Shown here: positions 36,718 through 37,897 of the stretch, piece by piece
Layout of the letters: the number at the start of each line of letters is the position of its first letter
Numbering within the stretch: position 1 is the first letter of the stretch
From: Escherichia phage vB_EcoM_G17
Reading direction: 5' to 3' (one strand)
DNA: 64,000 bases
Sequence record: MK327931.1
Made by a program: the position numbers and the translations under genes
Notes under the pieces: model-generated
Told to the model about the DNA's origin: nothing
Databases searched by the model: none
Seen by the model: only the letters and a program-made list of their open reading frames with translations

Positions 36718-37897
36718 ATGTTACCTTTTTCTAGAATGGTTAAGTACGGGAATATAGCACCTGTATATGAATCTAGTGTGATTAAAATGCAAGCACCATC
36801 AGCTTTTACCAACAACACATTGATGATTCTGTATAAGAACGGTGATTTGTGGGGTATTGGCGGTAACAATGCTGGTATATTCGGTCTTGGAAATACAACG
36901 ACACAGACCAAATGGGGTCGCTTAATGCAAAATGTGAAAAATTTTTGGTGCACAAGGAATGCTTCATATAGCTTAGTTCAGACCAATGATAATAAATTTT
37001 ATTATGCAGGTTGGAACCTTTGGACTGGTACATCTAGTGCAGTTCAAAGTACTACATTTGTTGATTGTACGTCTTATTTTTCAGGTTTTAATGTGGATAA
37101 TATCAAGGAGATATATCCAAATGTTCGTAATATGTTTTTACTAACAAATGATAGTGTTCTTTACGCAATAGGTGATAATTCGACCTATGAGTTGGGTAGT
37201 AGTTCATCTACACTTACATCATTTACACAGGTTAATATTAATGTTAAAAAGGTTAGTTCATTTTTCAATAGTCCGACTTGGATAATTAAAAATGATAATT
37301 CAGTATGGCGATGTGGTAAAACTAGTACTGGTACATTGTTAACTGGTTCTGCTACTGATACGTTGACGATTTGGACAAAGTATAGTTTTCCTACAGGACA
37401 GTACCCCGTTGATATAATTTCATATAACAATATGTTGGGTATAGTTCTTAATGTAGATAATACTTATCCGCTATATGGTGTAGGGTCACAAAATTCACGG
37501 ACAATTAGGAAATGGTGTTCTATCTAATACTAATAAGATATCTTTAACGCCACAAAGTACTTATTTACAATTAACTAATGTTTCCGATTTTGAATTTATA
37601 CAAACATATTCACAAAATCCTAGGGGATTATTATATAGAAATGGAAGTCGTATTTTTGGAACAGGGTATAATAATTATGGACAGCTTGGTAACAATTCAT
37701 CTAATAATGCTTCAATTTTCGTCCAAGCACAATTTCCAAATTCTGTAGTTTATGATCCGTCAACATCGTTGGTTGCTGCGAATGACAATGCATTATTTGC
37801 ATATGTGAATGGGAAATTATACTACACTGGTATGTCTCCAGTAGGGACAGTTGTTGGTACATGGACTTTAACTGAATACCAATTGCCACAAATTTAA
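36718..37897 (+). pseudogene. MLPF-family RCC1-like protein R11, interrupted by a +1 frame change near 37484-37527
   Basis: Track ORF 36718..37527 ends early; the next frame from 37484 encodes HGQLGNG...YNNYGQLGNNSS...VNGKLYYTG and stops at 37895-37897, just before the R12 RBS; joined length matches paralogs. Confidence 0.5.

What the first reader, a model, noticed from the sequence alone, without database searches (positions are those of the whole stretch)
36718..37897. Array member R11 needs a +1 frame change to reach full length
The ORF from 36718 stops at 37527 (269 aa), but the +1 frame from 37484 encodes canonical blades (HGQLGNG, YNNYGQLGNNSS, VNGKLYYTG) and stops at 37895-37897, 10 nt before the R12 start and its AAGGAG SD. 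Joined length of about 393 aa matches the paralogs. This is either a recent inactivating indel, a sequencing error in an A-run (tcacaaaattcacgg), or a programmed frameshift.
Basis: seen in the sequence. Interest (0 to 1): 0.6.

Follow-up and report, generated by a model that had tools for sequence, protein, structure and literature searches.

The report
Conserved +1 frameshift in phage gene
One gene in a tandem array of RCC1-like virion-protein genes of an E. coli jumbo phage carries an extra base that splits it into two reading frames, yet the split is inherited across many related phages and the downstream part still evolves like a coding sequence, so ribosomes probably slip forward one base here to make the full-length protein.

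Summary
The window is Escherichia phage Sharanji, an Asteriusvirus jumbo phage. ORF 36718-37527 (269 aa) and the +1 frame 37484-37897 are the two abutting parts of one RCC1-like seven-blade propeller gene.

It is not a sequencing error or a recent lesion. Ten of eleven sequenced phages with this gene have the same 1-nt excess at the same place. These include a second allele lineage only 83% identical, and 31 distinct protein alleles of the short ORF exist in public data.

The downstream 132 codons have dN/dS of about 0.2 in the +1 frame, the same as upstream, against about 1 or more in the other frames. Twelve of 13 within-lineage substitutions are synonymous in that frame (P = 2e-7).

The two lineages leave only 14 nt (37496-37509, CA CGG ACA ATT AGG) where the frame can change. 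The extra base reads as a C just 5' of a GGA glycine codon. This creates CGG, the rarest sense codon in the phage's genes.

My best reading is +1 ribosomal frameshifting at a slow codon, as in yeast Ty3 and glass-sponge mitochondria. That is inferred, not shown. No slippery site, stimulatory RNA structure or junction peptide was found.

The parts
36707..36713 (+). Shine-Dalgarno sequence AAGGAGG of R11
   Evidence: Read directly from the sequence. It lies 4 nt before the ATG at 36718.
36718..37497 (+). Frame-1 coding part: 260 codons, the MLPFSRMVKYGN leader plus about five propeller blades, ending ...YPLYGVGSQNS
   Evidence: PHROG 4219 positions 419-671. It aligns end to end with intact orthologs and paralogs. 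dN/dS is 0.17-0.23 in frame 1. The phAPEC6 ortholog gp007 was detected in virions by MS (PMC7247149).
37481..37483 (+). TAG that closes frame 2 upstream (5' limit of the shift in Sharanji-type alleles)
37496..37509 (+). The only stretch where the frame can change in both allele lineages: CA CGG ACA ATT AGG
   Evidence: WPEC3-type alleles have a frame-2 TAG at the position equal to 37493-37495 and a frame-1 TAA at 37510-37512. The 12-mer CGGACAATTAGG is identical in both lineages.
37498..37500 (+). Zero-frame CGG (Arg) codon, the proposed slow A-site codon. C37498 is the base proposed to be skipped.
   Evidence: Codon alignment: CAA AAT TCA [C] GGA CAA (Sharanji type) and CAA GTA GTG [C] GGA CAA (WPEC3 type), against intact CAA TTT TAC GGT CAA and CAA GGT GCA GGA CAA. 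It is the only CGG in 4,479 array codons and CGG is the rarest of 61 sense codons in 143 predicted genes.
37499..37897 (+). Frame-2 coding part: GGA (Gly) then QLGNG..., 132 codons plus a TAA stop, forming blades 6-7
   Evidence: PF00415; PHROG 4219 positions 669-786. dN/dS is 0.19-0.21 in frame 2 against about 1-2 in frames 1 and 3. Selection is present in all three sub-segments, including the 44 codons before any ATG/GTG/TTG. Twelve of 13 within-lineage changes are synonymous in frame 2.
37507..37509 (+). Zero-frame AGG (Arg), a second rare codon in the window and an alternative, less likely shift site
   Evidence: Allele P0023 has GGG here (tail RTIGKW), which is TTA to TTG, synonymous in frame 2. 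AGG is therefore dispensable.
37525..37527 (+). Frame-1 stop TAA. It ends the 269-aa product of ribosomes that do not shift.
   Evidence: The zero-frame tail is not conserved: RTIRKWCSI* in one lineage and RTIR* in the other.

Best explanation
R11 is a live gene for an RCC1-like seven-blade propeller virion protein. Its full 392-aa product needs a +1 ribosomal frameshift inside 37496-37509.

Proposed course of events:
1. The ribosome reads frame 1 through Ser UCA (37495-37497).
2. It pauses with CGG (37498-37500) in the A site. CGG is the rarest sense codon in the phage's genes. From general knowledge, not tested here, it is read in E. coli by a minor tRNA-Arg.
3. A Gly-tRNA then binds the overlapping GGA (37499-37501), so C37498 is skipped.
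4. Translation continues in frame 2 (...GVGSQNS-GQLGNGVLS...) to 37897.
5. Ribosomes that decode CGG normally stop 9 codons later and release a 269-aa fragment of about five blades.

Shown: the split is real and inherited, the downstream frame is under purifying selection, and the ORF1 part is present in virions.
Inferred: that the two parts are joined by ribosomal slippage, the exact site, the efficiency, and any help from the phage's own tRNA-Gly(UCC).
For: 1. The same 1-nt excess is present in 10 of 11 phage genomes that carry this gene, and tblastn of the intact homolog gives two pieces in every one of them. There are also 20 distinct 269-aa and 11 distinct 264-aa ORF1 alleles in public data, against no intact relative above 62% identity in the same database.
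2. Downstream dN/dS in frame 2 is 0.19-0.21 between lineages (dS 0.63-0.71) and 0.04 within the WPEC3 type. This equals the upstream value and contrasts with about 1-2 in the other frames. It holds for the 44 codons before any canonical start codon.
3. Twelve of 13 within-lineage substitutions are synonymous in frame 2 (P = 2.2e-7).
4. None of the 13 DNA alleles has a second disabling mutation.
5. No paralog in the window resembles the downstream DNA, so gene conversion from paralogs is excluded.
6. The intact homolog folds as one propeller over its full length (pLDDT 86.6; match to UVR8 with TM 0.74 over 392 columns). ORF1 alone is therefore an incomplete domain.
7. The phAPEC6 ortholog of ORF1 is in virions (3 peptides; PMC7247149).
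8. The site looks like a known type: a C 5' of GGA makes a rare CGG_A, as in glass-sponge mitochondrial +1 frameshifting, and Ty3-type shifts need no tRNA re-pairing (Atkins 2016, PMC5009743).
9. CGG is the rarest sense codon in the phage's genes.
10. Sharanji-type phages encode tRNA-Gly(UCC), which reads GGA.
11. Allele P0023 changes AGG to GGG, which is Leu-synonymous in frame 2. This places the shift 5' of 37505.
Against: - No junction peptide or full-length product has been observed. The phAPEC6 MS searched annotated ORFs only, and the JP4 MS table has no R11 peptides.
- There is no slippery P-site codon. UCA to CAC and GUG to UGC cannot re-pair.
- There is no prfB-like SD 3 nt upstream.
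- No RNA structure was found: z = -1.24 for the single-sequence fold, no covariation in the alignment fold, and no Rfam match.
- CGG_A is not depleted in other phage genes (5 of 21 CGG codons), so the tetranucleotide alone is probably not highly shift-prone.
- WPEC3-type phages appear to lack the tRNA-Gly(UCC) gene.
- The alleles are recombination mosaics that include blocks shared with the one intact allele. Some of the 'selected' variation could therefore have been imported.
Confidence: 0.55

Rival explanations
1. Tolerated pseudogene. The indel truncates one of twelve redundant paralogs, and only the 269-aa fragment (or nothing useful) is made. The downstream DNA looks 'selected' because recombination keeps importing segments from intact alleles that circulate in the phage population.
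For: The alleles are mosaics of 100-200-nt blocks. The 3' end of L126 is nearly identical to the intact vB_Ec-M-J allele, and the JP4 5' end is also vB_Ec-M-J-like. The array does contain a truly decayed member (39149-39554). No shift-prone motif or stimulator was found.
Against: - Intact alleles are rare: 1 of 11 genomes, and none above 62% identity among the database proteins. New mutations should therefore arise mostly on split backgrounds and look neutral, yet 12 of 13 are frame-2 synonymous.
- Inside the same mosaic block as the shift, Sharanji against L126 still shows 5 synonymous to 3 non-synonymous changes downstream (P = 0.019).
- No split allele has a second lesion.
- The split sits in locally diverged contexts (AATTCA against GTAGTG), so it is old or recurrent, not a recent sweep.
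Confidence: 0.2
2. Split gene. The two parts are made as separate polypeptides, with the downstream part started by reinitiation or a non-canonical start codon after the frame-1 stop. They then assemble non-covalently into one propeller.
For: Selection on frame 2 is compatible with this. The frame-1 stop lies only 4-9 codons after the window, which would allow termination-reinitiation. The phage encodes an IF3 homolog (Sharanji paper).
Against: Frame 2 has no ATG, GTG or TTG before 37769 in Sharanji-type alleles, or before gene position 914 in WPEC3-type alleles. These positions are not conserved between the lineages. Purifying selection already acts on the 44 codons before them, and the changes in GQLGNG are frame-2 synonymous. 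No SD precedes a plausible frame-2 start.
Confidence: 0.1
3. Adaptive knock-down ('savior' indel). The frameshift was selected because it cuts the dose of this protein, for example to escape a host defence that senses it. Only unprogrammed, very low-level slippage supplies a trace of full-length protein.
For: This would explain the high frequency of split alleles, the lack of any stimulator, and why CGG_A is not avoided elsewhere. The concept is documented for herpesvirus thymidine kinase (PMC5009743).
Against: Selection downstream is as strong as upstream, which is hard to sustain on a trace product. No defence link is known, and none was tested here.
Confidence: 0.13
4. Sequencing or assembly error in the A-run.
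Against: The identical split is found in 10 phage records and two other assemblies from different laboratories. Sharanji itself was sequenced with Illumina 2x151 reads. The second lineage has no A-run at the site.
Confidence: 0.01

Closest known systems
Glass-sponge (hexactinellid) mitochondrial +1 translational frameshifting (as summarised in Atkins et al. 2016, PMC5009743)
   Same: A single inserted pyrimidine immediately 5' of a GGA glycine codon creates an extremely rare zero-frame CGG_A (or UGG_A). The insert is inherited and the downstream frame stays coding. No P-site re-pairing is possible.
   Different: This case is in a bacterial cytoplasmic translation system and a phage gene. It is one gene rather than several. 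No tRNA with an enlarged anticodon loop was found among the seven phage tRNAs. It is not experimentally supported.
Yeast Ty3 (GCG_AGU_U) and Ty1 (CUU_AGG_C) programmed +1 frameshifting
   Same: [quoted passage not shown] Ty3 works without peptidyl-tRNA re-pairing. Here a rare Arg codon overlaps a Gly codon.
   Different: Those are eukaryotic ribosomes. Ty1 relies on CUU to UUA slippage and Ty3 has a 14-nt 3' stimulator. No counterpart was shown here, although about 90 nt after the site have reduced synonymous divergence.
E. coli prfB (RF2) +1 frameshift and frameshifting at tandem rare AGG_AGG codons
   Same: Same host ribosome. The shift is promoted by a slow A-site event.
   Different: prfB uses an in-frame stop, a CUU slippery codon and an SD 3 nt upstream. 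Sharanji has none of these at the proposed CGG site. In WPEC3-type alleles a TAA does follow AGG. The rare codons are not tandem.
Phage programmed frameshifts (tail assembly chaperone G/GT -1; Listeria phage PSA +1 in capsid and tail genes; from general knowledge)
   Same: A phage structural-protein gene would yield a short and a long product from one start.
   Different: Those have recognisable slippery sites and two functional products. Here the short product is an incomplete propeller with a non-conserved tail.
RCC1-like 'DNA condensation' protein arrays of Asteriusvirus (phAPEC6 gp003-gp010; PHROG 4219)
   Same: R11 is one member of this array, with the same MLPFxRMxKYGN leader. Its phAPEC6 ortholog gp007 is virion-associated.
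   Different: It is the only member in the window whose frame is split but conserved. The published annotation treats it as a 30-kDa protein plus small hypothetical ORFs.

Membership tests
RCC1-like beta-propeller (Pfam PF00415/PF25390; PHROG 4219) | Sequence match to RCC1 repeat or RCC1-like domain profiles | tested here: met
   ORF1: PF25390 E = 9.7e-12 and PHROG 4219 E = 2.9e-85. Downstream piece: PF00415 26.6 bits (cut-off 21.7) and PHROG 4219 E = 4.7e-11.
RCC1-like beta-propeller (Pfam PF00415/PF25390; PHROG 4219) | One seven-blade propeller spanning the whole protein | tested here: met
   Tested on the intact 394-aa homolog P0001 (62% identical): AlphaFold pLDDT 86.6 and pTM 0.85. Foldseek matches UVR8, RPGR, HERC2 and RCC1 over about 390 columns with TM 0.74. 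The two R11 pieces abut at PHROG profile position about 670.
Programmed +1 ribosomal frameshift | Two overlapping ORFs in a 0/+1 arrangement that together equal one protein of the family | tested here: met
Programmed +1 ribosomal frameshift | The frame disruption is conserved in diverged relatives | tested here: met
   10 of 11 phage genomes, in two lineages 83% identical, plus 31 ORF1 alleles.
Programmed +1 ribosomal frameshift | Purifying selection on the downstream frame in split alleles | tested here: met
   dN/dS is about 0.2 in frame 2 against about 1-2 in the other frames, and 12 of 13 within-lineage changes are synonymous. Caveat: the alleles are recombination mosaics.
Programmed +1 ribosomal frameshift | A recognisable shift-prone site (P-site tRNA able to re-pair in +1, plus a slow A-site codon) | tested here: inconclusive
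   Slow codons are present: CGG is the rarest sense codon and AGG the third rarest. No P-site codon in the window can re-pair, so only a Ty3/sponge-type mechanism fits.
Programmed +1 ribosomal frameshift | A stimulatory element (SD-like sequence about 3 nt upstream, or a 3' structure or sequence) | tested here: not met
   The SD-like AGGG/AGGAG lies 8-9 nt upstream of the proposed P-site codon, not 3 nt. The single-sequence fold gives z = -1.24, the alignment fold has no covarying pair, and there is no Rfam match.
Programmed +1 ribosomal frameshift | Trans-frame protein product observed | not testable with these tools
   Only ORF1-matching peptides are reported for phAPEC6 gp007. The JP4 virion MS table has no R11 entry.
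Pseudogene | Relaxed selection and secondary lesions downstream of the first disabling mutation | tested here: not met
   Contrast with the decayed member at 39149-39554 and the single-genome deletions in a Salmonella phage SD-1_S14 paralog.
Transcriptional slippage | A homopolymer run long enough for RNA polymerase realignment (about 7 or more; general knowledge) | tested here: not met
   The longest run in the permitted window is A2. The nearby A4 run is absent from WPEC3-type alleles.
prfB-type +1 frameshift | An in-frame stop in the A site after a slippery codon, with an SD 3 nt upstream | tested here: not met
   Sharanji-type alleles have AGG_AAA, not a stop, at the only comparable place. 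WPEC3-type alleles have AGG_TAA but no SD at 3 nt.

The most novel reading that the evidence does not exclude
A natural, conserved 'hungry-codon' +1 frameshift of the Ty3/sponge-mitochondrial type (skip of a C before GGA at the rarest codon, CGG) operates on E. coli ribosomes in a jumbo-phage virion-protein gene. Its efficiency, and so the ratio of truncated to full-length propeller, is set by tRNA supply during infection, including the phage's own tRNA-Gly(UCC).
Probability: 0.3. Interest if true: 0.75.

Novelty: new member of a known kind. Interest (0 to 1): 0.58.

Why it matters
If ribosomes really shift here, this would be a natural sense-codon +1 recoding site with no slippery sequence in a phage of E. 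coli K-12. The Ty3/mitochondrial mode of frameshifting could then be dissected in the most tractable system available, using reporters, tRNA overexpression and ribosome profiling. It would also tie phage-encoded tRNAs to recoding.

There is a practical consequence as well. At least ten GenBank genomes annotate this locus as a 30-kDa protein plus spurious small ORFs. They should probably carry a joined CDS of about 43 kDa.

No paper in the searched library links a frameshift to Asteriusvirus.

Tried and rejected
- Pattern scans for more alleles. IMG/VR found only phage 121Q itself. In the JGI/ENA metagenome scan, all listed hits were chance 17-mer matches. A third scan was wasted on a mistyped pattern.
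- Complete E. coli genomes and PLSDB plasmids gave no match.
The informative P0023 allele is therefore known only as a protein.
- Neither Ser- or Val-tRNA slippage at the proposed P site nor a -2 slip in CAAAAT can serve both lineages. The second fails because WPEC3-type alleles have a frame-2 TAG there.
- A suppressor-like phage tRNA was ruled out. ARAGORN finds seven tRNAs, all reported with ordinary three-base anticodons, and none reads CGG.
- The stimulatory RNA tests were all negative: single-sequence fold, alignment fold and Rfam.
- Depletion of CGG_A in other phage genes was not seen.
- Virion proteomics gave little. The phAPEC6 paper has no supplements held, and the JP4 table lacks R11.
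- An apparent truncation of a paralog at the same residue in Salmonella phage SD-1_S14 proved to be unrelated 21- and 40-nt deletions.

Full report
**Identity of the window and the locus**

The window is Escherichia phage Sharanji (OR545507.1), a 350-kb Asteriusvirus jumbo phage. Window position 36718 equals record position 52495. Positions 25-39 kb hold a tandem array of about twelve paralogous genes of 376-443 aa. Each starts with the leader MLPFxRMxKYGN and encodes an RCC1-like propeller. The finding concerns the eleventh member, which GenBank annotates only as a 269-aa hypothetical protein, gp116.

**Check of the observation**

- Frame 1 runs from ATG 36718 (SD AAGGAGG at 36707-36713) to TAA 37525-37527.
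- Frame 2 is closed by TAG 37481-37483 and then stays open for 137 codons to TAA 37895-37897.
- That stop overlaps the AAGGAG of the next gene, whose ATG is at 37908.

The open +1 frame is not chance. One of 20,000 shuffles of the stretch stays open, and off-frame stop-free runs in the ten intact array genes never exceed 62 codons. The downstream piece passes Pfam's RCC1 threshold alone. The two pieces map to abutting positions of PHROG 4219, 419-671 and 669-786. In a protein alignment they fit end to end against paralogs and intact homologs, with the break just before the conserved GQLGNG motif.

**Not an error, not recent**

Eleven phage genomes carry this gene at 82% nucleotide identity or more.
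- Eight carry the Sharanji-type allele: Sharanji, phAPEC6, SP27, UB, SHEFM2K, ELP-22, 121Q and JP4. They come from India, Belgium, Malaysia, Bangladesh, Canada, China and elsewhere, and all have exactly the same 1180-nt split gene.
- WPEC3 and Turkey5 are only 83% identical but are split at the same place.
- Only vB_Ec-M-J has a continuous 1179-nt frame.

The multiple alignment has one indel, a single base. tblastn with an intact 394-aa homolog (P0001, 62% identical, from a Logan assembly) gives two pieces in all ten split genomes and one piece in vB_Ec-M-J. The protein database holds 20 distinct 269-aa and 11 distinct 264-aa alleles of ORF1, one of them on 23 contigs. It holds no intact relative closer than P0001. 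Sharanji itself was sequenced with Illumina 2x151 reads.

**The downstream frame is still evolving as a coding sequence**

Between the two split lineages, the 132 downstream codons read in frame 2 give dN/dS of 0.19-0.21 at dS 0.63-0.71. This is indistinguishable from the upstream part in frame 1 (0.19-0.23). The same bases read in frames 1 or 3 give about 0.9-1.4.

The signal is present in all three thirds of the segment. This includes the 44 codons that precede any ATG, GTG or TTG in frame 2. Among closely related split genomes, 4 of 4 (Sharanji type) and 8 of 9 (WPEC3 type) downstream substitutions are synonymous in frame 2. The probability of 12 or more of 13 under neutrality is 2.2e-7.

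None of the 13 DNA alleles has a second stop or indel. The downstream DNA has no similar copy among the paralogs in the window, so gene conversion from paralogs cannot maintain it. By contrast, a truly decayed array member sits two genes away (39149-39554). It keeps only 44 N-terminal and 84 C-terminal residues, in different frames.

**A caveat on the selection evidence**

The alleles are recombination mosaics. The last 200 nt of L126 are almost identical to the intact vB_Ec-M-J allele, and the first 150 nt of JP4 are vB_Ec-M-J-like. Import of 'healthy' sequence from intact alleles is therefore possible in principle.

It is unlikely to explain the whole signal, for three reasons.
- Intact alleles are rare in every sample.
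- Within the same mosaic block as the shift, Sharanji and L126 differ downstream by 5 synonymous and 3 non-synonymous changes (P = 0.019).
- The split sits in locally diverged sequence in the two lineages.

The intact vB_Ec-M-J allele has a T4 run exactly at the site (CAATTTTACGG), so I cannot exclude that its intactness is a homopolymer miscall.

**Where the frame can change**

In Sharanji-type alleles the two frames overlap from 37484 to 37524. WPEC3-type alleles have a frame-2 TAG at the position equal to 37493-37495 and a frame-1 TAA at 37510-37512. If both lineages use one site, it therefore lies in 37496-37509, CA CGG ACA ATT AGG.

Aligned by codons:
- Sharanji type: CAA AAT TCA [C] GGA CAA TTA GG
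- WPEC3 type: CAA GTA GTG [C] GGA CAA TTA GG
- Intact genes: CAA TTT TAC GGT CAA and CAA GGT GCA GGA CAA

The simplest description is an extra C just 5' of a GGA glycine codon, although the alignment cannot fix the position of the extra base. The two codons before it are the variable 'xx' of the G-x-x-GQLG motif.

Allele P0023 ends RTIGKW instead of RTIRKW. This is AGG to GGG in frame 1, which is TTA to TTG (Leu) in frame 2. AGG is therefore dispensable, frame 2 is already being read at that codon, and the shift lies 5' of 37505. In all 31 ORF1 alleles the tail keeps R-T-I. This means GGA and CAA never took a frame-2-synonymous change, though most of these alleles are close relatives.

**Likely mechanism (inferred)**

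The C creates zero-frame CGG at 37498-37500. This is the only CGG in the 4,479 codons of the array. CGG is the rarest of all 61 sense codons in 143 predicted genes of the phage, at 21 of 25,790 codons, and AGG is third rarest. From general knowledge, CGG is read in E. coli by a minor tRNA-Arg.

The overlapping +1 codon is GGA. Sharanji and all Sharanji-type phages encode a tRNA-Gly(UCC) that reads it, within a set of seven phage tRNAs. The preceding codons (UCA or GUG) cannot re-pair in the +1 frame. The fitting model is therefore a pause on a slow codon with out-of-frame binding of the +1 aminoacyl-tRNA. This is the model proposed for yeast Ty3. [quoted passage not shown] 2016, PMC5009743).

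The predicted product is ...YPLYGVGSQNS-GQLGNGVLS..., 392 aa. If Arg is inserted and the A is skipped, the junction reads ...SQNSRQLGNG... with the same length. Ribosomes that do not shift terminate 9 codons later (4 in the WPEC3 type), with a non-conserved tail.

**Weak points of the mechanism**

- I found no stimulator. The 151-nt fold is ordinary (z = -1.24), the alignment fold has no covarying pair, and Rfam gives nothing. The SD-like AGGG/AGGAG is 8-9 nt, not 3 nt, from the proposed P-site codon.
- CGG_A is not avoided in other phage genes (5 of 21 CGG codons).
- WPEC3-type phages seem to lack the tRNA-Gly gene.
- About 90 nt after the site show reduced synonymous divergence (dS 0.28 against 0.6-1.4). 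The intact allele shares this, so it may be a recombination tract rather than a 3' element.

**Protein context**

An AlphaFold model of the intact homolog (pLDDT 86.6, pTM 0.85) matches full-length seven-blade RCC1-like propellers. UVR8 aligns with TM 0.74 over 392 columns, followed by RPGR, HERC2 and RCC1. The break falls in the loop after strand 254-258. ORF1 alone would therefore be about five of seven blades and an incomplete domain.

In phAPEC6 the ORF1 ortholog (gp007, listed at 30.06 kDa) was found in purified virions with 3 unique peptides, alongside seven other proteins listed in the same gene array (six named 'DNA condensation protein') (PMC7247149 Table 1). The gene is thus expressed and its product is stable enough to be packaged. 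That search used annotated ORFs, so it could not see frame-2 peptides. The JP4 virion table has three MLPF-leader proteins but not this one.

**Comparison with what is known, and novelty**

As a protein, R11 is an ordinary member of the Asteriusvirus RCC1-like array. As a recoding candidate, it meets the comparative criteria: a 0/+1 ORF pair equal to one protein, conservation of the split, and purifying selection downstream. It fails or leaves open the mechanistic criteria: no re-pairing site, no stimulator, and no product seen.

It works most like the Ty3 and sponge-mitochondrial class. It is unlike prfB, unlike tandem-AGG shifting, unlike the -1 tail-chaperone shifts of phages, and unlike transcriptional slippage, since there is no long homopolymer. 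None of the eleven GenBank records joins the two parts. The paper library has nothing that links a frameshift to Asteriusvirus. I rate it a new member of a known kind, pending experiment.

**Verdict**

The error and recent-lesion readings are rejected. A conserved, translated +1 frame change is the best-supported reading (confidence about 0.55 for ribosomal frameshifting as such, less for the exact CGG_A site). The main rivals are a pseudogene refreshed by recombination (0.2), an adaptive knock-down with only trace slippage (0.13), and a two-polypeptide split gene (0.1). Junction-peptide mass spectrometry or a simple reporter in E. coli would settle it.

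Noticed in passing
window 39149-39554: A decayed array member. It has a 44-aa N-terminus (MLPFRRII..., stop at 39281-39283) and, in another frame, an 84-aa C-terminal piece (39300-39551). These match PHROG 4219 positions 419-462 and 709-795, so about 245 profile positions are missing. It is a useful contrast to R11.
   Followed up: partly
window 25022-39077, especially 33573-34310: Every array member shares the leader MLPFxRMxKYGN. So does a glycine-rich 245-aa protein with no RCC1 repeats (PHROG 4474) that sits inside the array. Several array proteins are virion-associated in phAPEC6. The leader may therefore be a packaging or targeting signal rather than part of the propeller.
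   Followed up: no
L127 15693-15784 (Sharanji record 95470-95561): A phage tRNA-Ser with anticodon ACT (A at position 34). This is unusual for bacteria. The Sharanji paper lists a phage tRNA-specific adenosine deaminase, which hints at inosine-34 decoding. The tRNA-Met and both tRNA-Ser genes are 90-92 nt long.
   Followed up: no
R11 orthologs L002-L011, L021, L126 (gene positions 1-1180): The alleles are mosaics of 100-200-nt recombination blocks. For example, L126 positions of about 960-1110 are nearly identical to vB_Ec-M-J, and JP4 positions 1-150 are vB_Ec-M-J-like. The array evolves by frequent short-patch exchange between phages.
   Followed up: partly
window about 37528-37617 (gene positions 811-900): The stretch of about 90 nt after the shift window has markedly lower synonymous divergence between the two split lineages (dS 0.28 against 0.6-1.4 further on). 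The intact allele shares this conservation. Whether it is a 3' element or a recombination tract is undecided.
   Followed up: partly
window 28477-29808 (also 34345-35556 and 26191-27450): The mechanical ORFs carry N-terminal extensions upstream of the MLPF leader, up to 54 aa, and the first overlaps the previous gene by 92 nt. The repeated ...IKYSIMNKGGNMLPF... suggests a duplicated upstream region and a true start at MNK(E/G)G or MLPF.
   Followed up: no
L188 1201-2400 (Salmonella phage SD-1_S14) compared with L189: A 43%-identical paralog in SD-1_S14 has 21-nt and 40-nt deletions, the second of which shifts the frame. Its sister phages do not have them. This is a one-genome lesion or assembly fault, unrelated to the R11 site.
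   Followed up: yes
L011 (vB_Ec-M-J), gene position about 772-782: The only intact close allele has a T4 run exactly at the shift site (CAATTTTACGG). One more T would give the same split, with a stop after AGG. Its intact frame could therefore be a homopolymer miscall.
   Followed up: no
window 40239-43019, minus strand: A run of eight or nine small ORFs (104-141 aa). Their translations look hydrophobic and membrane-like. They follow the array on the opposite strand and match PHROGs of unknown function.
   Followed up: no
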